Source: Emiliania huxleyi CCMP1516 (taxonomy: Eukaryota). Taken from it: 64,000 nt of DNA. Below the pieces are notes generated by a model. That model had not been told where the DNA came from, searched no databases, and saw nothing but the letters and a program-made list of their open reading frames with translations. Positions 29,266 to 59,935 of this stretch are shown piece after piece (position 1 is the stretch's first letter; each line of letters opens with the position of its first letter). A program made the translations under genes and the position numbers. Location of the stretch: NCBI RefSeq assembly GCF_000372725.1, contig NW_005201392.1:128521-192520 (forward strand), written 5' to 3'.

Positions 29266-29501
29266 ATAACGCACGGGCCCTCAGCGGAGCTGGGAATAGG
29301 ACCGCCGCAAGCGGCGTGGCGTGGAGCGGTTGCGCATCCCTCCGGGGGCCCCTCTGCGCCGGGGAGGCGTTGTTGGAGGCTAGGACGCAAGCGTCCGTCG
29401 CCCTTTTCAAACTCGGGGCCCACTCCGCTACGCTCCGACCCGAATTTGGAGGGCCTAAAAAGTTTAAGGTGTTGCTGCGCAAAAAGGGGTCGGACACAGG
29501 G
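29266..29501 (+). repeat. Dispersed repeat family A, copy 1 (~235 bp)
   Basis: Direct copy at 46680-46920 and inverted partial copy at 59749-59882. Confidence 0.9.
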
Positions 29502-29658
29502 GGGTGTACCGGTTCTGGCTTGTCAGGGCGCCGTGCGTGGCTGGTCAGAGCAGTCCTGCCTCCCAACGCTCGCCAGACTGCCGCAGCCAAACCCGGTCTC
29601 GCTGAAAAGAAGAAAGTTTGGCCCAACGGAACTGGCGCGCACTGGCACTAACTCTGCC

Positions 29659-30187
29659 CAGAGCGGTGGTTGAGGCCGATTGCCTCAACTGTCAACCAGC
29701 GGGTTGACAGAGGTCTCAACCATCAACCAAGTGGTTGACAGACCCCTTCAACCTTCAACCCCGCGCAAAGGTCTGAACAGTGAACATTCTCTGTGAACAC
29801 TCATGTCGTCTTCTTTAGATGCTGCATTGGACGTGCCGTTTTTACGAGTACTTGCTTCAGCTACACGTGCGTGGATGGGAGAGGTGTGATGCCAAGCCCA
29901 GACGAGGAACGCTCTGACAAGCCATCCGCGAAGGCCCCCGCACGGGAAGTCCGGGCCGACGTCATGGTCGTCCGGACGCGGCCCTCCGTACACGGAAATA
30001 GCTTACCGCAGACATTTCCAAACGCAAAACTGCTTACCAAAGGCAGATACGAGCTCAGCTCAGTGAAATCTAGCAGCACATACCCTCAGACTCAGTATCC
30101 ATAATAGTTAAGTCTGAAAAAGTCGGTCCGACCGCGCAGAGCGGTCTGGCTGTCTGCAGAGGCCAGAGCTTCCGTCCGGGCCCTGAG
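29659..30187 (+). repeat. Dispersed repeat family C, copy 1 (probable transposon end)
   Basis: Inverted copy at 59017-59570. Starts cagagcggtggttga, with clustered gttga/tcaac hairpins. Confidence 0.85.
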
Positions 30188-31339: not shown

Positions 31340-33427
31340 ATGTCGCATCGTTGCGAGGAGCGTCGCTGGCGTGTTGAGCAACGGCGCGCCGAGTACGGAC
31401 GCGAAGAGCGGCGATGGCGGGGCGAGCCGCGACGGCGGTCGCGATCGCGCGATGAGCCGCGGCGGGATGAGCTGCGACGGCGCGACGAGCGTTGGCAAGG
31501 GCACCATGATGGGCGGCATGACGAGCGGCGCGGCTACGACGACTCTTGGTGCAGTGGGCGCGAGCAGCGATGGCACGCTGAGCCACACGCCGCCGAGCGA
31601 TGGCGCGACGAGCCATTGCAAGGCGAGCGACGGCCGCATCATGACGGGCGGCACGTTGAGCGGCGCGGCTGCAACGACCGACCAAGCATAGGCGAGCGCG
31701 AGCGCGACTTGTACGATCGGCGCGATGATCGGTTCTACGATCCCAGGCGCGACCATGACCGGCGCGACCGCCGCGGCGAGGGGCAGCCTCAGCACAGCGA
31801 CCGCCGGTTGAGTCCGCCGATGCGTGGTGCGGGATCGCGCGACGAGAGGCACACCTCTGCTGCCGGAGGTCAGCTCGATGCTAAGCAGCTCAGCGGCCGT
31901 ATCTCGCATGCCAGCGGCGCCGACGAGCTGCTCAGGCTCTTTGCTGCCCACAGCGCGAACTTGAACCACATCCACGCTGCGAACCTGTGGAACAAACTGG
32001 GCAAGCAGCGCATCGAGCGGCGGCACGAGGGGCGGCTTGAGCAGCTGGTGCAGCGCACGCTCGACCTGGTTTCTTCGTGCCGAGCACGCGAGCTGGCCAA
32101 CGTGTCTCACGGCGTTGCAAGGTGCGGCTTGCAGGCGAGGGTGGTGCGCCCGTTGTTCGTAGCGGTGGCGGAGGCGGCGGTGCGTGGCGGGCTGGCTGGC
32201 TTCACGCCTCAAGCCCTGGCCAACACGGTGTGGGCGTATGCGACGGCGGGCGTGGCTGCGGACGCGCTGTACGCGGCGGTGGCGGAGGCGGCGGTGCGCG
32301 GCGGGCTGGCTGGCTTCAACCCTCAGAACCTGGCCAACACGGTGTGGGCGTATGCGACGGCGGGCGTGGCTGCGGACGCGCTGTACGCGGCGGTGGCGGA
32401 GGCGGCGGTGCGCGGCGGGCTGGCTGGCTTCAAGCCGCAGGCCCTGGCCAACACGGTGTGGGCGTATGCGACGGCGGGCGTGGCTGCGGACGCGCTGTAC
32501 GCGGCGGTGGCGGAGGCGGCGGTGCGGAGCGGGCTGGCTGGCTTCAACCCTCAGAACCTGGCCAACACGGTGTGGGCGTATGCGACGGCGGGCGTGGCTG
32601 CGGACGCGCTGTCCTCAGATTGGAGCGCGGCGGCAATCAACAACCGCTCTTACCCCGCATGGTGGGCCACCGGGTGGGGCGTAGCAGAGATGCTGGGCGA
32701 GCCCGACGCTGGCGGCGAGTGTTCCGATCGCGGCAGCGCATGGGCGCCTTCCCACAACGGCTCGGCAGCGGAGTGGGTCAGGCTGGAGTTTGGAGATGAG
32801 CCGTTGCGCATGATTGGCTTGCAGGTGCGCGAGGTGCTGGCTGCGCCGTTCATACTCCGCGTCGAGGTTGAGAGCGAGGAGGCGCAGCGTTGGACAATAT
32901 GGAATGGGACAGATGAGACGCCGTGTCCCGGCTGGTTTGACCTCAGCTACGACAGCGGCAGTCAGGCCATTGCCGCGGTCTACATCTTCACCCAGGCCGA
33001 CGGCTTTGAGGAGATTGATGCCGTTTCGTTGGAAGTGCCCATTCCATGCTCGCCCTCGCCGCCGCCCGAGTCACCCTCAACTCCCCTGCCCGCCTTCGCC
33101 GTGCTCACCGCGCGGCCGCTGGCCGTCGTGCTTGCGCTAGTCGCCGCGTGGCTCCTCCTCTTTGCATACCTCTGCCTGCGGGTGCGGCGACGGAGCCGAT
33201 CTGTAGGGCTGCGCGCTGCAAAGGACTTGGAGGGGCCCACACTCCTCTCGCCACCAGGTCCAGCGGCCGAACGACGGGTGGGCGAGCCGGGAAGCCCGAC
33301 GGACGCCCAAACTATAGGCCCCAGCATTGACTTGGACAGCGCCCTCCGTAGTCATGGGTGCGCTCGCCTTGTGCCTCTCGAGAGAGAGAGTCTGAGAGCT
33401 TGCACACATGCAAGGCCACATTTATAG
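31340..33427 (+). CDS. Chimeric ORF: OPR-like repeat protein N-terminus (4 repeats) fused to an extracellular-type galactose-binding-like domain, PSPPP linker and TM helix
   Basis: 31355-32611 is nearly identical to 39435 onward. Abrupt in-frame switch at 32612 to ...SAWAP...EWVRLEF...EEIDAVSL. No RAP domain. Confidence 0.6.
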   Translation: MSHRCEERRWRVEQRRAEYGREERRWRGEPRRRSRSRDEPRRDELRRRDERWQGHHDGRHDERRGYDDSWCSGREQRWHAEPHAAERWRDEPLQGERRPHHDGRHVERRGCNDRPSIGERERDLYDRRDDRFYDPRRDHDRRDRRGEGQPQHSDRRLSPPMRGAGSRDERHTSAAGGQLDAKQLSGRISHASGADELLRLFAAHSANLNHIHAANLWNKLGKQRIERRHEGRLEQLVQRTLDLVSSCRARELANVSHGVARCGLQARVVRPLFVAVAEAAVRGGLAGFTPQALANTVWAYATAGVAADALYAAVAEAAVRGGLAGFNPQNLANTVWAYATAGVAADALYAAVAEAAVRGGLAGFKPQALANTVWAYATAGVAADALYAAVAEAAVRSGLAGFNPQNLANTVWAYATAGVAADALSSDWSAAAINNRSYPAWWATGWGVAEMLGEPDAGGECSDRGSAWAPSHNGSAAEWVRLEFGDEPLRMIGLQVREVLAAPFILRVEVESEEAQRWTIWNGTDETPCPGWFDLSYDSGSQAIAAVYIFTQADGFEEIDAVSLEVPIPCSPSPPPESPSTPLPAFAVLTARPLAVVLALVAAWLLLFAYLCLRVRRRSRSVGLRAAKDLEGPTLLSPPGPAAERRVGEPGSPTDAQTIGPSIDLDSALRSHGCARLVPLERESLRACTHARPHL

Positions 33428-39210: not shown

Positions 39211-39419
39211 AAAGTGGGCCGCGGACACCTCGTAAATAAAATAATTTGAAACGTCGTCGAGCGCGAAAGTAGACAAACAAAGTAGTGAGGGAACAGCCTC
39301 GGGAAGGAGCTACGGTTAAATTGCTGTAACCGTGAACAGACGCCGAAGTTGACCAACATCCGCGGTTGAGGCCTCGTCGGCGTACCCGGGTTCAGTACAC
39401 TATCTCGCTCGTGTCACAT

Positions 39420-42020
39420 ATGTCCTACCTAGGTGAGGAGCGTCGCTGGCGTGTTGAGCAACGGCGCGCCGAGTACGGACGCGAAGAGCGATGGCGGGGC
39501 GAGCCGCGACGGCGGTCGCGATCGCGCGATGAGCCGCGGCGGGATGAGCTGCGACGGCGCAACGAGCGTTGGCAAGGCGAGCCGCACCATGACGGGCGGC
39601 ATGACGAGCGGCGCGGCTACAACGCCTCTTGGTGCAGTGGCCGCGAGCAGCGATGGCACGCTGAGCCACACGCCGCTGAGCGATGGCGCGACGAGCCATT
39701 GCGAGGCGAGCGATGGCCGCATCATGACGGGCGGCACGTTGAGCGGCGCGGCTGCAACGACCGACCAAGCATAGGCGAGCGCGAGCGCGACTTGTACGAT
39801 CGGCGCGATGATCGGTCCCACGATCCCAGGCGCGACCATGACCGGCGCGACCGCCGCGGCGAGGGGCAGCCTCAGCACAGCGACCGCCGGTTGAGTCCGC
39901 CGATGCGTGGTGCGGGATCGCGCGACGAGAGGCACACCTCTGCTGCCGGAGGTCAGCTCGATGCTAAGCAGCTCAGCGGCCGTATCTCGCATGCCAGCGG
40001 CGCCGACGAGCTGCTCAGGCTCTTTGCTGCCCACAGCGCGAGCTTGAACCACATCCACGCTGCGAACCTGTGGAACAAACTGGGCAAGCAGCGCATCGAG
40101 CGGCGGCACGAGGGGCGGCTTGAGCAGCTGGTGCAGCGCACGCTCGACCTGGTTTCTTCGTGCCGAGCACGCGAGCTGGCCAACGTGTCTCACGGCGTTG
40201 CAAGGTGCGGCCTGCAGGCGAGGGTGGTGCACCCGTTGTTCGTAGCGGTGGCGGAGGCGGCGGTGCGGAGCGGGCTGGCTGGCTTCACCCCTCAGGCCCT
40301 GGCCAACACGGTGTGGGCGTATGCGACGGCGGGCGTGGCTGCGGACGCGCTGTACGCGGCGGTGGCGGAGGCGGCGGTGCGCGGCGGGCTGGCTGGCTTC
40401 ACCCCTCAGAACCTGGCCAACACGGTGTGGGCGTATGCGACGGCGGGCGTGGCTGCGGACGCGCTGTACGCGGCGGTGGCGGAGGCGGCGGTGCGCGGCG
40501 GGCTGGCTGGCTTCAACCCTCAGAACCTGGCCAACACGGTGTGGGCGTATGCGACGGCGGGCGTGGCTGCGGACGCGCTGTACGCGGCGGTGGCGGAGGA
40601 GGTGGTGCGCGGCGGGCTGGCTGGCTTCAACCCTCAGGCCCTGTCCAACACGGTGTGGGCGTATGCGACGGCGGGCGTGGCTGCGGACACGCTGTACGCG
40701 GCGGTGGCGGAGGAGGCGGTGCGGAGCGGGCTGGCTGGCTTCAAGCCTCAGGACCTGGCCAACACGGTGTGGGCGTATGCGACGGCGGGCGTGGCTGCGG
40801 ACGCGCTGTACGCGGCGGTGGCGGAGGTGGCGGTGCGCGGCGGGCTGGCTGGCTTCAACCCTCAGAACCTGGCCAACACGGTGTGGGCGTATGCGACGGC
40901 GGGCGTGGCTGCGGACGCGCTGTACGCGGCGGTAGCGGAGGCGGCGGTGCGCGGCGGGCTGGCTGGCTTCAAGCCGCAGGAGCTGGCCAACACGGTGTGG
41001 GCGTATGCGACGGCGGGCGTGGCTGCGGACGCGCTGTACGCGGCGGTGGCGGAGGCGGCGGTGCGCGGCGGGCTGGCTGGCTTCAAGCCGCAGGAGCTGG
41101 CCAACACGGTGTGGGCGTATGCGACGGCGGGCGTGGCTGCGGACGCGCTGTACGCGGCGGTGGCGGAGGTGGCGGTGCGCGGCGGGCTGGCTGGCTTCAA
41201 CCCTCAGAACCTGTCCAACACGGTGTGGGCGTATGCGACGGCGGGCGTGGCTGCGGACGCGCTGTACGCGGCGGTGGCGGAGGCGGCGGTGCGCGGCGGG
41301 CTGGCTGGCTTCAAGCCGCAGGAGCTGGCCAACACGGTGTGGGCGTATGCGACGGCGGGCGTGGCTGCGGACGCGCTGTACGCGGCGGTGGCGGAGGTGG
41401 CGGTGCGCGGCGGGCTGGCTGGCTTCAAGCCGCAGGCCCTGGCCAACACGGTGTGGGCGTATGCGACGGCCGACTATTATCACCAGGCGCTGCTTGCCGA
41501 CTGCTCGCGCGTGATCAGCGACTCGCTCGCGCGGGATCCGTCGAGGTGGAGCGAGGAAGCCCGCTCTCAGCTGCACCAGTGGCAGCTCTGGCTCTCCCTG
41601 GAGCGAGGAGCAGACGGGCAGCAGCACCTCCTCTCCGAGTCCCAGCGCAAGCTCTGCTGCGACGCCATGCAAGGCACCGAAGTTACGATCTCGCGCTTAC
41701 AGCGCTCCGTCGCGGCTGCCCTCGCCGCCGTCCAGCACGGCTTCGAGGAGGAGCACCTCGAGCCGCGCACCGGCTACTCGCTCGACCTGGCGCTGCCCTC
41801 TTCACGCGTCGCTGTCGAGGTGGACGGCCCCTCTCACTTCCTGCTGCCCGACGGCCGGGGCGTGCGCAAACCCAATGGGCCAACGCTGCTCAAGCGGCGC
41901 CTCCTCAGGGCGGCTGGCTGGAGGGTGATCAGCGTTCCATTCTACGAGTGGGACGGCTTCGCGACAGCCAATGGGCAGCAAACCTACCTGGAGAGGGCGG
42001 TCGCCCCGCTGTTGGGCTAG
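39420..42020 (+). CDS. Intronless OPR-like (38-aa repeat) RNA-binding protein with C-terminal RAP domain
   Basis: 11 near-identical 114-bp repeats GLAGFxPQxLxNTVWAYATAGVAADALYAAVAEAAVRG plus one degenerate repeat. RAP motif YSLDLA...VAVEVDGPSHF...TLLKRRLL...GWRVISVPFYEW. Confidence 0.9.
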   Translation: MSYLGEERRWRVEQRRAEYGREERWRGEPRRRSRSRDEPRRDELRRRNERWQGEPHHDGRHDERRGYNASWCSGREQRWHAEPHAAERWRDEPLRGERWPHHDGRHVERRGCNDRPSIGERERDLYDRRDDRSHDPRRDHDRRDRRGEGQPQHSDRRLSPPMRGAGSRDERHTSAAGGQLDAKQLSGRISHASGADELLRLFAAHSASLNHIHAANLWNKLGKQRIERRHEGRLEQLVQRTLDLVSSCRARELANVSHGVARCGLQARVVHPLFVAVAEAAVRSGLAGFTPQALANTVWAYATAGVAADALYAAVAEAAVRGGLAGFTPQNLANTVWAYATAGVAADALYAAVAEAAVRGGLAGFNPQNLANTVWAYATAGVAADALYAAVAEEVVRGGLAGFNPQALSNTVWAYATAGVAADTLYAAVAEEAVRSGLAGFKPQDLANTVWAYATAGVAADALYAAVAEVAVRGGLAGFNPQNLANTVWAYATAGVAADALYAAVAEAAVRGGLAGFKPQELANTVWAYATAGVAADALYAAVAEAAVRGGLAGFKPQELANTVWAYATAGVAADALYAAVAEVAVRGGLAGFNPQNLSNTVWAYATAGVAADALYAAVAEAAVRGGLAGFKPQELANTVWAYATAGVAADALYAAVAEVAVRGGLAGFKPQALANTVWAYATADYYHQALLADCSRVISDSLARDPSRWSEEARSQLHQWQLWLSLERGADGQQHLLSESQRKLCCDAMQGTEVTISRLQRSVAAALAAVQHGFEEEHLEPRTGYSLDLALPSSRVAVEVDGPSHFLLPDGRGVRKPNGPTLLKRRLLRAAGWRVISVPFYEWDGFATANGQQTYLERAVAPLLG

Positions 42021-46679: not shown

Positions 46680-46920
46680 ATAACGCACGGGCCCTCAGCG
46701 GAGCTGGGAAGAGGACCGCCGCAAGCGGCGTGGAGTGGGTCAGTTGTGCATCCCTCCGGGGGCCCCTCTGCGCCGGGGAGGCGTTGTTGGAGGCTAGGAC
46801 GCAAGCGTCCGTCGCCCTTTTCAAACTCGGGGCCCACTCCGCACGTACGCTCCGACCCGAATTTGGAGGGCCTAAAAGTTTAAGGTGTTGCTGCGCAAAA
46901 GGGGTCGGTCGGACACAGGG
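46680..46920 (+). repeat. Dispersed repeat family A, copy 2
   Basis: Matches 29266-29501. Confidence 0.9.
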
Positions 46921-49275
46921 CGCAGCTCATGCTAAGAGCTAGAAGGGGAGCTAGAGAGAACGACTACCCTGTCCCGTTATTGCGTACACCAACACCACAA
47001 AAGCTCTCTCTCTCCTGTCCTCACTCACTCAGGGGGGTCACAACTACCGAGTCCCTCGACTAGCTGCCACGTTGCCGACCGAGAGCGGATCTCCTCCTGC
47101 TCCGCAAGGAGGGTGGCCAAGGCTAAAGTCTTGTCGGAGCCGCCGGGCGTGTTGACGACTTGGAGAAGGTCGCCCCCTTGTACTTGTACTTGCTCGAGGG
47201 GGTGCTTTGTGGGGCGGTGCGCAGCCAGGCCAGCAGTGAGGGGAGGCGCACCCTCACTCTCCTCGGTTGCAGAGCTCGTCGGAGGCTGCGGCACGACGGG
47301 AGGGTCGCGACAGCAGTCCTCGGGCGAGCCGACGCGCATGTCCAACCAGCGCTGGGACTCGTTGTGACGGCAGACGCCGGCTGCCTCTCCAACCGACTTC
47401 TGCAGTGTCCTTCTTTGCCCGGTGCATGGGCTCGGTCCGATTCCGCAGCGTGTCGTCCCCAGCGGCGGTGCTGCGCGGGAGGCGGCCGCGGGCACGCTGG
47501 GCTCGATCAGCGGCTTTCCCTCCCAGTTGCTCCGAAAGCACGGATTTGGCGGACGTTCTTGGCTTCAATTTCACGAATGTCTTGGCACCAGTTGAAGGCT
47601 TGCACGGCCCAGATCACATGGTTTCTGCACGGTATTCGGATTTTGCTATTTGTTCGTGTGGGGGTATATTGCAGATTTGTCAATGGTACCGCGTCTGCGA
47701 CGCGGGCGCCTTGCGGGCAGAGCCCTTAGCCACCCTTTATATCTTGCGCGGTCACAAAGAAAATAATCTCCCGAGCGTGAGGCTCTCATTCATACCCTCG
47801 CGTATTCCTCTCGCGCGTCCAATGCACTCATCAGTCATCAACAAGCGATGTATGGGCACGCCGCCACCGCACAGGGATTTCATTCAATAACACGAAAATC
47901 GCAGCAGCCTCGCTGGGCCAGAAGACCGGCCCGCGAGGTGGGGTGCTAGTCTGGGACGATACGTCGCAGTTCCCTTGCTCCAAGCGCTTGCGCTTCGGCG
48001 GTAGTGATCTGATCACCCGAATGCCACGTTCGGATCGCGCCTCATCGCAAACCCTGTCAGCAGTTCATCACTCGGGTTCGTAAGAGCCGCGTACATGAAA
48101 ATGCTTTTCCTCGACGGGCGGTGTGGGTGCGCGATGCATTGGACAGCAATTTCCCTATGCCTGCTCGCCACTGCGGGCGGAGTACATCCGAAGAGCAACC
48201 GGTACACGGCGGCGCTCGACGGCCCTGGGTAGTCGACGGACGGGCCCCTGACGGGGGTGCTCTCCGGCCGCGGCGGCCGAAAACGGGGGTCTCCGGTACG
48301 GTCCGGTAACGAAGTGATGCACTAGATGCAAGGGTGCCATTGTGCTCTACTATAAAAGTTGTGGAAGATGCCCAAGTCTCAGATCCTGAATCCTTAGCGG
48401 AGCTGAGTTCTGACGGTGTGAACACGAGCAACCTGAGTGACGGGACCGGGGCCGTGATTGTCGATTGCCATCACGTGCGTGCACCTCCGATGCGTCGAAG
48501 AGGGGGTCGAGATGAGCGCGCATTCGCTCACTGAAGCGCACATCGAAGGCAGGACCGAGCAGAGCGCGATCAGTGCGAGCCAGATGGTGCGACGCCGAGA
48601 GCTGATTGACGCCATCGATTTTGCAGGCTTTTTCCCCTTTGAAATATTCCCAACGGCACCGCCCAAACGGGGCGGCCAGAGGTCACGTGCACGCCACGCC
48701 ACCACAGGAGGAGAAGATCAACGCGCTTGCGCCGCGCAGCGCCGGGCAGTGGCAGCTCTGCGACTCCGCGCGCACCCTGCGGCGCTGGTACAATGCGTGC
48801 AGGCACGAGCGAGGCCAGTGGAGCGTGGGTGCGCAGCCGAGTGACAAGGAGGTGGCGCGGGTGATCGAGAGGGTACGCCCGGTTGGGTCGTGCGAGGGTA
48901 CTAGATACGTAGAGTGTGTCTCGCGCCTTGGCCCTTGCGCGCGCGGGGGGGGGGGGGGGGAACCTCTTCCCAAGGCCACTCTTGGAGCGCCGCCACCACA
49001 CCACCGCCAGAGCGCTGCAAGCAGCGCCGGGGCCCGGGCCAAACTGTTGCACTGACGGCTTTTTCCTTTTAGCCGCGCTTACGCGCTTAAAGGGCTTACC
49101 ACATACCAGTCCAGCCCCGCCCCGGGCGCCAAAAATTCTGTGCACTGTGCGCGACAAGTTTTCCTCGACACGCGTGTTTTCTGGCCATATTCCCGCGAGG
49201 CCTCGCGACCGATAACGTAGAGAGACACAAGAGCCAAGTGTGTCAAGACACGCAGAGGGGCTGATCCCGACGCAC

Positions 49276-52200
49276 TCACCACTCCGTCTCGACAAAGTCT
49301 TTGAGAAAGACGCCATGGAGAGGCGTCTCGCCCGTGCTGACGCCCTCAAAGACCGGATGCAGGACGCGCGCTGCCGCGTCCACCTCGTCCAGCGGCGTCT
49401 GGAAGTGACTCGTCTCGGCGGTCCTCGCTGCGCGCTCGCGAGGGTTCTCGTCGTTGATCCAGCCGGTATCGACCGCCGTCATGTAGATGCGGTGACTGGC
49501 GGCCAGCTCCGCTGCCGAGGTTCGCGTCATCATGTTGAGCGCCGCCTTGGCCATGTTCGTGTGCGGGTGGTTGGCCGTCTTGTGACGATAAAACTTGCCC
49601 TCCATCGCAGACACGTTGACGATGAAGGCGGCGCCCGCCGCGTCGGCCGCCGCAGCGAGCAGTGGCTGCAGCCGCGCGTTGATGATGAAGGGCGCGAGCG
49701 TGTTGATGGCGAGCACCTCGCAGAGCTCCGGCGTCGACACGTCGGGGAGCTTGAGCCGCCAGGAGTTGGTGGCGCGCAAGTCAATCTGCTGCCCATTCAC
49801 GTCCAGCTGTCCGGCGGGCAGCACCGCCCCTCCTTGCTCGCCGCTGCCGAGAGGCGACACCGCCGTCGCGGCGTCTTCAGTCGTGAGGTGCAGCTGCGAC
49901 AGCTGCGCGGGTGTCGGGGTCGGTGGATCGTGGTCGTCCCGCCCCTCGTCCGTCCAGCGTATGGCGCTGCCCCTCGCCTGGCGCCTCCCCTCTCGCCGGC
50001 TCGCCTGCTGCGCAAGGAGTGGTGCGAGGGGCGCGCCAGCCTGGCCCGCCTCGACCTCGGCCTCAAACGCGAGCAGATGCGCGTAGTAGCTCGCCGGCCG
50101 CCGGATCGTCTGGCACGCGTTGTTGACGACAACGTCGAGCCGCGGGAGCGTCGCGCGCAGATAGTCACAAAAGCTCTCCAGCGCCACGACGTCCCTCAGG
50201 TCGAGCGCGTGGACGTGCAGTCGCTCGCGCCACGCCTCGAAGTCCGCCTCGGCGGCGTAGCGCTTCGCGGCGTCGGCGGGAAAGCGAGTGGTCGCCACCA
50301 CCGTGGCGCCGGCTCGTAGCAGCTTGAGCGCGATCTCGAAGCCCACCTTGACGCGGCTGCCCGTGAGGAGCGCATAACGGCCACTCAGGTCGGCGGTGCA
50401 GTGGCGCATCCGATAGTTGAGCGAGGCGCACTTGGGGCAGAGCTGCGCGTAGAAATGGTGCAGCGCCCCGAAGCGCGCCTTGCAGCTGTAGCACTGCCGC
50501 GGCTTGAACAACTCCGGCCCGTTCGTCGCGACTGCGCCGTCGGCGTCGCTGCCGGCTGCTGCCTCAACTCCACTCACCAGAGACCGGCCCTCCTCGCGCA
50601 CCGCGCCGTCCGGAACCTGGCACAGCAAGCGACGGCAACCGATGCCGCCGTCATCACCATCGCCGCTCACGCCAAGAGCGAGCAGCCGTCCCGGCTCCTC
50701 ACAGAGCCCCCGTAGCCGCTCGATGCGGCCACGGCGCAGCCCCGTGGTGTCCAAATGCCGCCGGTCCGCGTCGGCCTGGCGCGCCCTCCGGCTCTCGTCC
50801 TCCTTGCGCAATGCACGACGTCGCCCGTTCTCCAGAGCGGCGGCGTCGCGCTCACTCATCGCCGCATGCACCGGGCCAAAGGCCTTGCGCAGCCGCCGGA
50901 ACCGCGGCCCTGCCAAGAGCCGCGACGGGTCCTTTGAGAGCCGTTCGAGGACCGAGACGCAAGCGTCGAGATCGCCGTCCGAGATGTTGACGTCCGAATC
51001 CTCGTCCGGCGAATCCTTGCTGGTCGCTTGGCTGGGCGGGGCATCGTCGGCGCTGGGGGTGGACGACTCCCCGCTCCTCGCAACAGCCGCTGCGCTTGCA
51101 CCCGCCACAGCGCGTGGCGCACCCGATGCAACCCTCTCCTTCCCGCAGCCCTGGCCGTGCCCCTGCGGGGCAACCTCATCGGCCGTGTATCGACAGGGGC
51201 TTGCGCGGTCTAGACGCGAGAGGCAGGCGGAGACTGCTTCTCGCACCTTGCGCCGCGCCGCCTGGGCGTCCCTTGCGGCGGGCGAGGAGAAAAGCGCCCT
51301 CACCCGCGCCTCCAGCCCAACCGCGGCGGACGCCGCCTCCCCGGAGGCGAGGAGCGCTCCGAGAAACGTTGCAAATAGCCAGAGACAGGAGCGAGCGAGG
51401 GCACCCGGGCTCGCGGGCTGCCCAAGCAAAGCCTCGCCGTCTCCACCGCCGTCGACGCGGCGGCGGCCGGCGTCTGCCACCGGCGCCGCCTCAGCAAAGG
51501 TGCGCTCCACCGCAGCGAGCGCAGCGACGTGCGCACCGCAAGACACGGCAGCGATGGCGGTGGCCGATGCCTCACCAGGCGCCTCGTCAGCCTTGGACGA
51601 GCAATCAGCGGCGTAGCACAGCAGCGTGAGCGAAGCCTCCACCGCCGCCACATCCGTCGCGTGCGCCTGCAGCACCGCTACAGCTCGCTCGAGAGCCCGC
51701 TCGGCGATGCATGCCGCCAGATTCCGCGGGTGGTGCTTGAGTAGAAAAGCGACGGCCTTGCACCCAGCCTCGTGCGCCCTCGCCGACGCGCAATGCACGG
51801 CGAGGCCCTGCAGCAAGACCGAGGCGCCGCCAGCTGCCCCAATCGCATCCTGCATCGGCACGGACCGCACAACGAGATTCCGGAGCGCGTGTGCCCCCCA
51901 CCGGTAAAACTTCGCGGCACGGTCGCACCGGCAATCGCTCGCTGCGAGCCGCGCGCGCATAGCGGCCACCACAACCGCTGCGCCGTGAGGACCGACGGCA
52001 GCCTTGACGTCGTCAACGTCCCAGCCGTAGCAGAGGTTTCCGAGGGCGCGGCTCGCCTAGGACACGCGGACACCAGGGTGGCGCGTGTGCCACCCTCTCC
52101 CCCCCGAGACTAAGACACGCGAGCCTGGACGCACAGCTCCTCCACTGCCCTCTCTGCCCCCTCGCCGGCGCGTGCGCGTCGCCGGCCGACCACGAACGCC

Positions 52201-54642
52201 TCATGCTGCTCCACGGCGGCGAGGAGCGCCTCCACGCCACTGAGGGAGAGGGCGGCAGCCTTGTTGGCGCCGGCGCCGGCCACCAAATCGGCTAGTGCCG
52301 CGGCGGCGTCGGCCCCCATGCGGAGCGCCTCGAGGCCGGCCGCGTCACAGAAACTTGCCTCCGGGCCCAGCCGCGCGGCGGCGATCGCGTGGACGGAGAC
52401 GCGCACGCCAGAGCGACCAAAGGCGACGGCGGCCGCGTGGCTGCTCTCCAGGCGCGCCGCCTCGGCGCGGAGGAGGCGCAGCGAGTGGCCCCTGACCGCC
52501 CGCACCGGCCCGGAGGCCTCGTCGCCGCCACTGGCCGCGTCGATGGTCGGCAGCCACACCGTGGCGAGGAGAGCCGAGGCGTCGCCGGGGCAAGGAGGCT
52601 CGCGGCCACAGCTCGGCCGCAGGAGCCGGGTGAGCGCGCCGCACGCCTCGTTTGCCACCGCGGCCAAACCACCGGCCGCGGCCACGGCCCTTGGCACGCC
52701 GCCGCTGCCGACCTCCAACACGGCGCAGAAACGGGTGGCGCTCGCCGCGTCCGTCAGCAGTACGAGGCCGGGCCGAGCAATCGCCTCCGAGAGCGGGACG
52801 ACGGCGAAGCGAATAGCCCCCGGTACGCGCCGCCGAGCAGCGAGCGCGTAGTGCGACATGGTCGTGCGCGCGTTGACCTCGAGCAGCCGCACAGCCAGCG
52901 CGCCGCCGGGAGCGCGCACGATCGCGCAATCCACGCCGCACGTGCGCGAGCCGCACGTCGCGGGCACGTCTAGCGGATCGAGCGCTGCCTCGACGGCGCG
53001 CCGGCGGAACACAAACTCGAAGAGCTCCTCCTCAAGCGGCGCAGCCGGGCGCGGCTCCTGGTCGAGCAGCGTCGCCGACCAGCGCATGTGCGGCGCCTCG
53101 AAGCGCGACACGCCGCAGAGCTCCCCATCAATCCACTCGGCGCTGTACCTACGAGCGGCAGAAGAGGCGGAGCCGTGCGAAGAGGCGGCCTCGACACGGC
53201 GCGGCGCGGAGCGCGGAGGCAGCGCACTCGGCGAGGAGGTCGAGGACCGGCTCGACGGTCACCACTCCATCGCGGCGGAGGGCGGCGCGCGCCCATCGCT
53301 CGCCCGCACCGCCAGGGGCCAGAGACGCGGCATCGCACACGCGCACCCCCATGCCGGAGCACGACCACTCGCGCTTGAGGACAGCGCGACCGCCGCACGC
53401 CACGGCCGCCGCCCGCACCTCCTCCACAGACCGGCATACCGACACGTCAGCTCGGTAGCGCGCCACGTTGGAGCGGCGCAAGTGCGGACCGGCGACGGCG
53501 TACGGCCGCTGGCCGGCGATCGCGCGGCCGGCGGGTGGTGCGGGCGCGAAGGTGGGCAGGTCGCGCACGCCGGCGGCCGCGAGCGAGCTGAGGAAAGCGG
53601 GCCGCTGCTCTGGCGCAACGACGATGTCTGTGGGGCGGGCGAGCAGCCACGGCAGGGCGGCGAGGTCGGCGCGGAGGGCGAGCCAGCTCTTGGAGAGCGT
53701 GCGTCCCGCCGCCTCCTCCTCGACACCGGCGTTGAAGCTGTGCACCCAGGCCGGAGGCTGGGGCGGCGGCGGCTGGGGAGGAGGTGGCTGCGGAGGCGGC
53801 CGAGGCGGCGACTGGGAAGGAGGTGGCTGGGAAGGCGGCTGAGGCGGGGAGGGCGGCAGAGAGGGACAGAGAGGCGAGAGCAGCCTGCGGTGCCACGCGA
53901 CGAGCAACTCGAGGGCGGGGCCGAGGCAATGGCCGCCGCGATGGAGCACCGACTCGCGTGCGGCGGCACCGAACGCAGCGGCGAGTTCCTCGCTTGCGGC
54001 GGGGTCGACAAGCCGGTCGCATGAGCCGGAGACGTGTAGGGAGGCGAGCCCGCCAAGGCGGGCGCCTGACGGCTCGGCGGAGGCGGAGGAGGGGGGGAAG
54101 GATAAGGAGTGGTCGGAGGTGGCCGTCGGGGCTGCTCTCACGACGCCGTCCTCGTGCAGGTAGCCGCCGAAGGGGTAGCCCGAGACCAGGGCGACGTGCC
54201 GCAGGTCGGGAAGCGGGCCCTCGTCGCGCCGGAGCGAGCAGGCCAGGTGAGCCAGAGCGGCGCCCTGGCTGAAGCCGACGATGCCCGCGAAGCCAGAGCC
54301 GTGCGCCGCGCGCTCGGCAGCGTCGGCGGCGCAGATGACGCGCAGCGAGTCGGCCACGCCCTGGAGGACTCGCGCCCCGCCGCTACCGCGAGCGACAGTC
54401 CACCACGCTCTGGGCGACTCTGGCGGCGAAGGCACAACACCCGCAAGCGGACGTGCCTCGACGGTGAGCGGGCCGTCGAGGAACGTGAAGCGAACGTCGC
54501 CGCTGAGAGCTTCGCGGGCTCTTCGCATCTGATGAGCCATCGTCGAAGCACTCATGCCGAAGCCGTGCAGGCACACGACCGAGAGAGGCCGCGATGGATT
54601 GCTCGCACCAGTAGCGGAAAGGCACTCGCGTTGCTGCGACAT
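49276..54642 (-). CDS. Multidomain enzyme: FSH1-type serine hydrolase, ATP-grasp-like domain, ARM repeats, Zn-finger/SDR oxidoreductase (~1739 aa)
   Basis: Exons 54642-53228, 53148-52125, 52056-49276 join three ORFs in phase (GT-AG and GC-AG introns). Motifs: CLHGF, GFSQGAA, HRGGH; VLKREWSCSGMG, GVD...LEVNARTTM; CYSC...HHFY...CPKC, LTGSRVKVG, NNACQT, NVSAMEG, HPHTNMAK. Confidence 0.8.
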
Positions 54643-54934
54643 TGGAGCTGGTCGCTCACTCCTGCGCGCGCCGCGCGCGCGCGCGTCGCGCGCGTGGATG
54701 TGATGCAAAAAAAAATCCATGTATGGCTTTGTTTTATGACATCGTTTGAACGCATGGCTTTCAAACGGCATTTTGCTCGCGTCGGCGCCGCCGAGCGCTG
54801 CTCGGAGAGTATACTCTTTGACCTCCTACGACCGGTGTGCTACTACTCGCTTCTTCTAAGCGGGAGGTTACCAACTACGGCGTACCCGCCTAATTCTGTT
54901 ATCCTTCACCGCGACGCAGAGCGGCGACGTCATT

Positions 54935-55690
54935 GTGCAGCTCCACCCGCACTCACAGCTCGAGCGCGCGGTCCGCCATGAGCGGCAGGCGCAGGCCACG
55001 GAGCCGCCCGCGAGCGCGAGCCCTGCGGCGCCGCCAGCCCCTGCCGCCGAGCCGCCAGCTGCGGAGCCGGCGACCAGCATGACGTACGCCGCCGCAGCCG
55101 CATTGCACCCGCAGGGTGCCACCGCGGGAGGCCAGCCCGCCGCGCCTGCGGGCCCGGCCGCCGCCGCGCGCGTGCCGCCGCCGCCCAGCGGCGGCGGAGT
55201 GCGCGGCTGCACTTTCACTGTCCCTAATCCGGGAAGGAAGCGCGGGCAGCAGCAGCGCGGCAAGGGCCGCAGTGCCAGCGGCCGCGCCAATGCTGGACCC
55301 CGGCTCGTCGACAAGAACGCGCTGTCGGCGCGCGGCGGCGGGCCCTCGCGCCAGTCGCGCTCTCCCTCACCGGACTCGCCGCCCGCCAAGCGGGCGTCCT
55401 CCGCCGACTCCTCCGGCTATGACACGGATCTACCGGACGAGGTGCAGCAGGAGGCGGTCCGCAGGGTCTGCGGCGCGCTCGGCCTGAAGGAGCAGTACGA
55501 CGCGGCGGTGGCGGCGGGAGAGCTGCTCGAGCTGCTCGAGAGCCTGCCGCGAGGGACAGTCGAGGCCTCCATCCGGCTCATGCGGGGATACACCCGCACG
55601 GGCGAGTGGCCCGAGCCCATCCTACCCAGCCCTGCCCCGGAGCTCGGCCGATCGCCTAGAAGCCCCTCTGATGAGTGGTCAGATGAATAG
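54935..55690 (+). other. Intronless low-complexity ORF, possibly a retroelement ORF1/gag remnant
   Basis: TYAAAAA motif, basic and Ser-rich tracts, short helical C-terminus, followed by repeat B. No diagnostic domain. Confidence 0.3.
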
Positions 55691-55901
55691 TGCCCGAGAG
55701 CGAGGGATACGGAGGGGAGCACAAATAGGACGCCCAGCCTTGCCCTCGTGCCGCCGAGTGCGTATCCTACCCGACGGTGGCACTCTTCCACGTCTCGCTC
55801 ACGCTGAGAAAAATTCTGAAACGGCGTGCAGCAGAGTCACCGACGAGTCGGTCCGCGTGCCTCCTCGTGTCCCGTGCCGTTCTCACATAAAATAATCGTC
55901 A

Positions 55902-59016: not shown

Positions 59017-59935
59017 CTCAAGGCCCGGACGGAAGCTCTGGCCTCTGCAGACAGCCAGACCGCTCTGCGCGGTCGGACCGACTTTTTCAGACTTAACTAT
59101 TCTGGATACTGAGGGTATGTGCTGCTAGATCTCACTGAGCTGAGCTCGTATCTGCCTTTGGTAAGCAGTTTTGAGTTCGGTAATGTCTGCGGTAAGCTGT
59201 TTCCGTGTACAGAGGGCCGCGTCCGGACGACCATGACGTCGGCCGGGACCCCCCCGGTGGCGGGGCATTCGAGATGACTTGTCAGCGCTCCTCGTCTGGG
59301 CTTGGCATCACACCTCTCCCATCCACGCACGTGTACGTGTAGCTGAAGCAAGTACTCGTGAAAAAGGCGCGTCAAATGCAGCATCTAAAGAAGACGACAT
59401 GAATTCACAGAGAATGTTCACTGTTCAGAAGTCTTTGCGCGGTGTGTGTGTGAGCAGCCATTCCGCGTGGTTGAAGGTTGAAGGGGTCTGTCAACCACTT
59501 GGTTGATGGTTGAGACCTCTGTCAACCCGCTGGTTGACAGTTGAGGCAATCGGCCTCAACCACCGCTCTGAGTAGATTGTAGAGATTTCACGTTGTAGAG
59601 CGCCTCTACATCGCTCTACAACGCACGCAGTTCGTCACGCGGCGGATGTAGCTCTACAGCTCTACAGCGCTCTACAGCGCTCTCCAGCGCTCTACACCTC
59701 TACAGCTCTACAGCGCTCTACACTCTACATCCTCTACACCCTCCCTCGAAAGGGCGACGGACGCTTGCGTCCTAGCCTCCAACAACGCCTCCCCGGCGCA
59801 GAGGGGCCCCCGGAGGGATGCACAACCGACCCACGCCACGCCGCTTGCGGCGGTCCTCTTCCCAGCTCCGCTGGGCCCGTGCACTTGGAGCACTTGGAGT
59901 GCAGTCGGTAACCGCACATCCAGGGCCGGGGAGCT
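59017..59935 (-). repeat. Composite repeat cluster: inverted family C (59017-59570), (ctctaca)n element end (59575-59745), inverted A (59749-59882), inverted B 3' end (59881-59935)
   Basis: Direct comparison with the other copies in the window. Confidence 0.85.

What the first reader, a model, noticed from the sequence alone, without database searches (positions are those of the whole stretch)
49276..54642. Three apparent ORFs form one hydrolase/ATP-grasp/ARM/reductase megaenzyme
Seen: two short phase-compatible introns (53227-53149, 52124-52057) unite the ORFs. The gene is intron-poor compared with its neighbours, and the SDR has HTNMAK in place of YxxxK plus a CxxC...CxxC finger. Knowledge: FSH1/LovG-type hydrolases can release acyl products, ATP-grasp folds ligate carboxylates to amines, and SDRs reduce carbonyls. 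Inference: an undescribed single-polypeptide pathway, possibly with bacterially derived parts.
Basis: partly seen in the sequence, partly recalled or inferred. Interest (0 to 1): 0.7.

Follow-up and report, generated by a model that had tools for sequence, protein, structure and literature searches.

The report
Algal four-domain ligase-reductase megaenzyme
One spliced gene of a marine alga encodes a 1,739-residue protein joining an ester hydrolase, an ATP-driven amide-bond ligase fold, a helical repeat scaffold and a zinc-finger reductase; other algae fuse three of these parts in other orders, so they likely work on one still unknown substrate.

Summary
Observation confirmed. Removing the two introns gives one 1,739-aa frame. 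In 3 of 4 runs (4 studies) one ~5-kb contig skips both introns. The domains are FSH1 hydrolase (triad intact), PGM1/LdmS-like ATP-grasp (catalytic residues intact), ARM repeats and an SDR. The protein matches an Emiliania huxleyi partial model at 99%. The HTNMAK motif and C4 finger are not special to this gene: they mark a widespread, unstudied SDR family (118 and 115 of 120 top hits). That SDR groups with prasinophyte green algae, not bacteria; only the ATP-grasp looks bacterial, nested among DUF455-fused ligases. New here: grasp, ARM and SDR recur as grasp-ARM-SDR, ARM-SDR-grasp (Cymbomonas model), ARM-grasp and ARM-SDR, which suggests a coupled ligase-plus-redox unit with FSH1 as a lineage-limited add-on. 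No other protein with all four domains was found, bacterial neighbourhoods give no pathway, and no substrate is known. This scan noted the bacterial DUF455-grasp fusion before on other DNA, but not this gene or SDR.

The parts
53228..54642 (-). Exon 1 CDS (aa 1-472): FSH1 domain, Pro-rich linker, N-half of ATP-grasp
53149..53227 (-). Intron 1, 79 nt, GT..AG, inside the ATP-grasp domain
   Evidence: skipped in 4 of 4 runs
52125..53148 (-). Exon 2 CDS (aa 472-813): C-half of ATP-grasp, start of ARM repeats
52057..52124 (-). Intron 2, 68 nt, GC..AG, inside an ARM repeat
   Evidence: skipped in 4 of 4 runs
49276..52056 (-). Exon 3 CDS (aa 814-1739 plus stop): rest of ARM, linker, SDR module
53887..54591 (-). 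FSH1/OVCA2-family serine hydrolase, aa ~18-252; S125 (GFSQG), D209, H238
   Evidence: Pfam PF03959 E 2e-27, 96.6 bits vs cut-off 21; residues; triad roles assigned by motif
53755..53871 (-). Proline-rich linker, aa ~258-296
   Evidence: sequence
52710..53754 (-). PGM1/LdmS-like ATP-grasp ligase, aa ~297-618 (spans intron 1); K423 before the P-loop, E464, D545, E562-x-N564-x-R566
   Evidence: model of 62%-identical homologue P0161, pLDDT 94; best folds 8ynd, 7r8q, 3wvq; motifs
51211..52646 (-). ARM-repeat solenoid, aa ~640-1095 (spans intron 2)
   Evidence: profile A4 hits engineered repeat proteins 4rv1 E 9e-21, 4hxt E 6e-10; natural and designed ARM proteins (Vac8, SPAG6, importin-alpha) only at E 0.03-1; Pfam Arm below cut-off in P0208, P0220
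49276..50991 (-). SDR module, aa ~1169-1739: long basic helices, C4 finger, Rossmann fold (TGxRxKxG; N1598, S1629, K1650)
   Evidence: Pfam adh_short E 4e-15; model pLDDT 87; SDR folds
50428..50493 (-). C4 finger C1335/C1338/C1353/C1356; zinc binding inferred
   Evidence: invariant in 89 of 89 aligned rows
49546..49569 (-). HPHTNMAK active-site motif; no Tyr, Thr1646 at K-4, His1645 at K-5, His1643 at K-7
   Evidence: invariant in 89 of 89 rows; coordinates
49160..49275 (-). 3' UTR, transcribed unspliced through the stop codon; end approximate
   Evidence: contigs of X4, X7, X11

Best explanation
This is one spliced gene for a 1,739-aa four-domain protein whose ATP-grasp, ARM and SDR parts likely act together as a ligase-plus-redox unit on one small metabolite. 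Shown: the transcript, the folds and the intact catalytic residues. Inferred steps: (1) the ATP-grasp phosphorylates a carboxylate and joins it to an amino-acid or peptide amine, as LdmS and PGM1 do; (2) the SDR, likely NADP(H)-dependent and using His rather than Tyr as its acid/base, oxidises or reduces that acyl group before or after ligation, taking the redox slot that the di-iron DUF455 domain fills beside the bacterial ancestor of the ligase; (3) the ARM solenoid holds the two enzymes or the amine partner; (4) FSH1, added in one sub-lineage, frees an acid from an ester or trims the product. The protein is probably cytosolic (no signal-like N-terminus seen by eye; no predictor run). The confidence given is for the coupled small-molecule mechanism; that it is one protein is about 0.95.
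For: One transcript. ATP-grasp fold closest to 8ynd, LdmS 7r8q and 3wvq. K423, D545, E562, N564, R566 correspond by motif spacing to LdmS K173, D288, D301, N303, R305 (PMC9486568 passages; the mapping is my inference). The same modules recur in different orders: grasp-ARM-SDR (P0128, one 1,302-aa ORF), ARM-SDR-grasp (Cymbomonas P0228), ARM-grasp (P0185, P0196/P0261, P0208, P0220), ARM-SDR (Prasinoderma P0123, P0122, P0125), FSH1-grasp (P0164, P0173). All ARM-fused SDRs fall in one 100-supported clade. The bacterial ligase is fused to DUF455 (7 of 43 hits scanned; all 9 fused Myxococcota-phylum ORFs scanned) or lies within two genes of it (4 loci); no DUF455 was found in the algal fusions scanned. 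The FSH1 triad is also kept in P0164.
Against: No second protein with all four domains: 19 long SDR hits, 2 grasp hits among 7,991 candidates of 716-2,279 aa, 68 representatives; these searches miss intron-split genes. The SDR stands alone in most relatives and the ligase appears stand-alone in Teleaulax (P0245), so each can work without the others. None of 45 bacterial SDR loci has FSH1, grasp or ARM nearby (0 of 25; 0 of 20). Only 1 of 20 strong-grasp loci has the SDR within the stretch fetched (G186, ~6.3 kb), and 0 of 20 weaker ones. Genome co-occurrence (17 of 34 vs 76 of 251, p 0.009) was not corrected for genome size. The Cymbomonas fusion depends on the gene model: another set splits it into consecutive genes. 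No substrate clue, and no biosynthetic cluster among 17 neighbouring ORFs scanned.
Confidence: 0.45

Rival explanations
1. The unit modifies a macromolecule (a protein or peptide, or a tRNA) rather than a free metabolite. The ARM repeats or the SDR's basic helix and finger would bind the target, the ligase would add an amino acid, the SDR would set the oxidation state, and FSH1 would erase or trim.
For: PGM1 ligates onto a ribosomal peptide (PMC8939145 passage). ARM repeats bind extended peptides (established knowledge). The SDR family keeps 99 near-invariant positions, many of them Arg/Lys, plus a C4 finger. Three relatives carry an insert weakly like WHEP domains of tRNA synthetases (2djv E 0.06, 1fyj E 0.2), and P0127 fuses the SDR to cold-shock domains.
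Against: The WHEP hits are not significant, rank below an unrelated repeat protein, got no Pfam match, and the insert is absent from this protein. No MiaA among the 40 ORFs (ligases and their neighbours) scanned from Myxococcota-phylum loci, which may not be the lineage that note meant. The closest solved SDRs act on small molecules.
Confidence: 0.25
2. The fusion is linkage without chemical coupling: neighbouring genes that travelled together between algae were joined by loss of stops and are merely co-expressed.
For: Long low-complexity linkers (aa 258-296, 1096-1168). Each enzyme occurs alone elsewhere. No conserved bacterial operon joins them. One annotation has the Cymbomonas ARM-SDR and grasp as adjacent separate genes.
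Against: At least three different orders of the same partners imply repeated fusion or rearrangement that kept them together in a haptophyte and prasinophytes. Catalytic motifs are retained in all three enzymes.
Confidence: 0.27
3. The three ORFs are separate genes or yield separate proteins.
For: Public models are fragments: a 167-aa partial FSH1 model (P0248) and a 406-aa SDR (P0140). Contigs are not single molecules.
Against: Both introns cut through domains. Single contigs span both joints in 3 of 4 runs. Single-ORF homologues read through the same places.
Confidence: 0.03

Closest known systems
LdmS (S. aureus L-Asp-L-Met ligase, PDB 7r8p/7r8q), PDB 3wvq/3wvr (linked to PGM1 from recall) and Streptomyces ATP-grasp peptide ligase 8ynd
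   Same: Fold (top Foldseek hits, E ~1e-10, TM 0.5-0.64); Lys before the P-loop, acidic metal ligands and the ExNxR motif
   Different: 11-16% identity; shorter domain; fused to FSH1, ARM and SDR; substrates unknown
Bacterial DUF455 (ferritin-like di-iron) - ATP-grasp fusion, uncharacterised
   Same: Closest non-algal relatives of the ligase: P0178 is 44% identical and sister to the algal clade (support 100, quick tree)
   Different: No DUF455 here; the partners are SDR, ARM and FSH1
FSH1 / OVCA2 serine hydrolases (PF03959); LovG-type thioesterases (recalled)
   Same: Pfam match above cut-off; Ser-Asp-His triad as in OVCA2 S117/D179/H206 (PMC7077851 abstract)
   Different: Fused to a ligase; no polyketide synthase found among neighbouring ORFs scanned; no PDB sequence hit at E 0.1
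Classical SDRs (FabG, gluconate 5-dehydrogenase); divergent enoyl reductases such as FabI (motif recalled)
   Same: Rossmann fold; Asn, Ser and Lys of the tetrad kept
   Different: No catalytic Tyr; Lys replaces the middle Gly of TGxxxGxG; ~200-aa helical plus C4-finger extension; under 20% identity to any solved SDR; below every NCBIfam cut-off shown
Multi-domain assembly-line enzymes (NRPS/PKS, carboxylic acid reductase; recalled)
   Same: Activation, reduction and hydrolase domains on one chain
   Different: No carrier (ACP/PCP), adenylation or ketosynthase domain detected by Pfam, so no tethered intermediate is evident

Membership tests
ATP-grasp ligase, PGM1/LdmS-like | ATP-grasp fold | tested here: met
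   Model of homologue P0161 (62% identical), pLDDT 94; top hits 8ynd, 7r8q, 3wvq. The window's own spliced domain was not folded.
ATP-grasp ligase, PGM1/LdmS-like | Nucleotide Lys, metal-binding acids, catalytic Arg | tested here: met
   K423, D545, E562, N564, R566; ExNxR in 14 of 20 algal-clade proteins (6 without a match; most end early) and 12 of 12 outer proteins
ATP-grasp ligase, PGM1/LdmS-like | Forms an amide from an amino acid or peptide | not testable with these tools
   needs assay
FSH1/OVCA2 serine hydrolase | PF03959 above cut-off | tested here: met
   96.6 bits vs 21
FSH1/OVCA2 serine hydrolase | Ser-Asp-His triad | tested here: met
   S125, D209, H238 by motif; no structure made
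LovG-type polyketide-releasing thioesterase | Partner PKS in the same cluster | tested here: inconclusive
   none among 17 neighbouring ORFs scanned; whole genome not held
Classical SDR | Rossmann fold | tested here: met
Classical SDR | YxxxK catalytic motif | tested here: not met
   Thr at K-4, His at K-5 and K-7, in 89 of 89 rows
Classical SDR | TGxxxGxG cofactor motif | tested here: not met
   TGxRxKxG; K1383 invariant in 89 of 89
ARM-repeat protein | Tandem armadillo repeats | tested here: met
   Profile hits engineered repeat proteins at E 9e-21 to 5e-7 and ARM proteins weakly; Pfam Arm below cut-off; not folded
NRPS/PKS/CAR assembly line | Carrier domain with A or KS domain | tested here: not met
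   no such Pfam match at E up to 1 in the three ORFs
DUF455-ATP-grasp fusion | N-terminal DUF455 domain | tested here: not met
   FSH1 lies in that place

The most novel reading that the evidence does not exclude
A mobile, carrier-free 'ligate and reduce' module (bacterial-type peptide ligase, ARM scaffold, His-dependent zinc-finger SDR) that moved between green prasinophytes and haptophytes and was reshuffled on one chain. It makes an unknown amide metabolite or protein/tRNA modification in abundant marine phytoplankton, and gives the first functional handle on two widespread orphan enzyme families.
Probability: 0.3. Interest if true: 0.8.

Novelty: new variant of a known kind. Interest (0 to 1): 0.55.

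Why it matters
The gene repairs a fragmented public annotation and ties together two families with no study that I could find: a very conserved Tyr-less SDR (in 76 of 251 Myxococcota-phylum genomes and many protists) and the DUF455-associated ligase. Recurrent fusion makes one concrete experiment possible: express a natural fusion and look for its product. If the domains are coupled, it is an unknown amide pathway in bloom-forming phytoplankton and a case of a multi-enzyme unit shared between green and haptophyte algae.

Tried and rejected
Whole-genome checks (paralogues, intron density) were impossible: no genome is held. No run is on record as RNA; the tool labels them 'RNA?', and I rely on the intron-skipping joints. 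Complex prediction of Cymbomonas ARM with ATP-grasp gave 'no answer' (score 0.00, alignments not used), which is no evidence either way. VIA-align searches never ran, so the SDR's helical/finger extension has no fold match; the Atlas gave only unnamed clusters for it. Pfam and NCBIfam do not recognise the grasp or ARM parts of the window, and a PDB sequence profile of the grasp found nothing under E 0.17. The metagenome scan gave 3 loci; two short ones hold the ligase in pieces, one of them with a weak 19-aa ARM-end hit just upstream. Bacterial neighbourhoods showed no shared partner for the SDR beyond one actinobacterial lineage's synteny. The divergent RNA 5' end is not an exon elsewhere in the window: its two near-matches lie in repeat-protein coding sequence. 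A donor-like GTGAGT at the stop codon was considered as a link to a further exon and rejected, because contigs read through it. A DUF2156-like reading of the extra N-terminal part of P0164/P0230 (recalled resemblance) got no support. Paper searches found nothing on this protein or motif: (open-licence library only; supplements not searched). PMC5462543 was opened only for three terms, with 0 hits, and is not used.
Full report
1. Observation. The three minus-strand ORFs join into one 1,739-aa frame when 53227-53149 (79 nt, GT..AG) and 52124-52057 (68 nt, GC..AG) are removed. Many other frame-compatible splice pairs exist, so transcript data were needed. Contigs from 4 runs of 4 studies all skip 79 and 68 nt at these places. 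In 3 of 4 runs one contig of about 5 kb spans 49528/49593-54661 across both joints, with 10-12 other letters and one in-frame 3-nt gap. The runs are only guessed to be RNA, and contigs are not single molecules, but both introns fall inside domains and single-ORF homologues read through the same spots. The gene is real and is one unit. A 167-aa partial model named Emiliania huxleyi EMIHUDRAFT_251410 is 99% identical to aa 1-167, so the window is E. huxleyi or a very close relative; public models are fragments. Upstream of 54661 the RNA contigs differ from the window; the 30 letters shown hold no in-frame ATG or stop by my reading, so the start at 54642 is likely but not certain.

2. Domains. 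FSH1 (aa 18-252): Pfam 96.6 bits, with S125, D209, H238 matching the triad type described for OVCA2 (PMC7077851, abstract only). ATP-grasp (aa 297-618): invisible to Pfam and NCBIfam. A model of the 62%-identical P0161 (pLDDT 94) matches 8ynd, LdmS 7r8q and 3wvq best. The window keeps K423, D545 and E562-x-N564-x-R566, which by spacing correspond to LdmS K173, D288, D301, N303 and the essential R305 (PMC9486568, passages). ARM (aa 640-1095): a profile of 11 rows hits engineered repeat proteins at E 9e-21 and named ARM proteins weakly. SDR module (aa 1169-1739): confident model (pLDDT 87), Rossmann fold under 20% identical to solved SDRs, preceded by long basic helices and a C4 finger.

3. The odd SDR is a family, not a quirk. 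HTNMAKA is in 118 of the 120 best hits and the C4 pattern in 115. In an alignment of 89 rows (the window, 81 of those 120 chosen by me, and 7 bacterial loci) HPHTNMAKAA, the four Cys and R/K in the Gly motif are invariant, and 99 positions are at least 97% conserved. One search counted 7,518 hits of 7,995 candidates, but only the top 120 were inspected. The family is in 76 of 251 genomes of the Myxococcota-centred sample and 13 of 201 of the Actinomycetota-centred sample. Asn, Ser and Lys of the tetrad are kept. Counting back from Lys, Thr sits at the usual Tyr place; HMMER instead aligns the Tyr of gluconate dehydrogenase to His1643 with a 3-residue gap. That spacing recalls enoyl reductases such as FabI (recalled), so a His acid/base is my inference. 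Invariant Arg1404 after the second strand and basic residues in the Gly motif suggest NADP(H) (established SDR rule, recalled).

4. Architectures elsewhere. P0128 is one 1,302-aa ORF with grasp-ARM-SDR, 46% identical over 1,320 columns. Cymbomonas CYMTET_40879 (P0228) is ARM-SDR-grasp (41-42, 58 and 54% identical by domain), though another set gives it as two consecutively numbered genes. Prasinoderma P0123, P0122 and P0125 are ARM-SDR; P0185, P0196/P0261, P0208 and P0220 are ARM-grasp; P0164 and P0173 are FSH1-grasp; Teleaulax P0245 looks stand-alone. Most are unnamed metagenome ORFs that may stop at introns, so missing domains cannot be scored. No other protein had all four domains. The ARM family was only reached through its partners, so whether it also occurs alone is untested.

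5. Origins. In a quick tree of 42 rows, the ligases of the window, Cymbomonas, Teleaulax and unnamed relatives form a clade (99). With P0203 and the DUF455-fused P0178 it has support 100 and nests among DUF455-fused rows, including Myxococcota-phylum loci; I rooted it on four unnamed stand-alone sequences assumed bacterial. The three FSH1-fused ligases group together at 87. A bacterial origin of this domain is likely. The SDR sits in a 100/100 clade with Micromonas, Cymbomonas and Prasinoderma, apart from the Diacronema and Chrysochromulina copies and from bacteria. An AU test rejects joining it to those haptophyte copies (p 0.003), but I named the group after seeing the first tree and added three unnamed neighbours. 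Transfer between prasinophytes and haptophytes is likely; hidden paralogy is not excluded, and direction is not shown.

6. Bacterial context. The ligase is fused to DUF455 or near it (4 split cases). No FSH1, grasp or ARM was found near 45 SDR loci. One of 20 strong-grasp loci has the SDR about 6.3 kb away. Co-occurrence is 17 of 34 against 76 of 251 (p 0.009, uncorrected for genome size). So the coupling, if real, arose in algae. The 17 neighbouring ORFs scanned give bestrophin, thioredoxin, RAP/OPR-type, SNF2, SUMO-like and ephrin-like matches, and no biosynthetic cluster.

7. Mechanism. Best reading (0.45): a ligase-plus-redox unit on one metabolite, with ARM as scaffold and FSH1 as an accessory. 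The steps after 'one protein, intact active sites' are inferred. Rivals: modification of a protein or tRNA (0.25; PGM1 uses a peptide acceptor, PMC8939145 passages; weak WHEP-like and cold-shock hints); linkage without coupling (0.27); separate proteins (0.03).

8. Comparison and novelty. Each fold is known. It works like an activate/reduce/hydrolyse chain but fails membership of NRPS/PKS/CAR (no carrier), of classical SDRs (no YxxxK) and of the DUF455 fusion (no DUF455). Searches (listings only) found no paper on the protein, the motif or the combination. Earlier notes of this scan cover the bacterial DUF455-grasp fusion but nothing like this gene. Verdict: real, undescribed new variant; interest 0.55.

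Noticed in passing
window 54662-54720: RNA contigs of two studies run on for 56-77 letters unlike the window just upstream of the gene, sharing short words with it around a CG-rich run; likely another allele or an assembly difference.
   Followed up: partly
window 54860-55800: A + strand 276-codon frame without Pfam match is covered by many short, high-depth, variant contigs, which suggests a multi-copy repeat or mobile element directly upstream.
   Followed up: no
window ~31500-32700 and 39336-42017: Two near-identical gene copies 8,083 nt apart with 114-nt (38-aa) tandem repeats; the longer has DUF1601/FAST/RAP domains, i.e. likely OPR-type RNA-binding proteins.
   Followed up: partly
P0123 ~470-560, P0125 ~475-565, P0056 1-61: A shared helical insert before the SDR, weakly like WHEP domains of tRNA synthetases (E 0.06-0.2); absent from the window's protein.
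   Followed up: partly
P0164/P0230 N-terminal ~380 aa: A further domain of no known family precedes FSH1-grasp in this relative.
   Followed up: partly
L089:2192-5136 (G189): DUF455, a fatty-acid desaturase and the ATP-grasp ligase lie in a row on one strand, a possible hint at a lipid substrate in that genome.
   Followed up: no
L049 (G186:C5): The only bacterial case seen with the ligase and this SDR on one stretch, same strand, about 6.3 kb apart with several genes between.
   Followed up: partly
window 29266-30187, 46680-46842, 59017-59935: Dispersed direct and inverted copies of a 120-160-nt repeat family.
   Followed up: no
P0127, P0134: The same SDR family is fused to cold-shock domains in one eukaryote model and to a PhyH dioxygenase in Cavenderia.
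   Followed up: no
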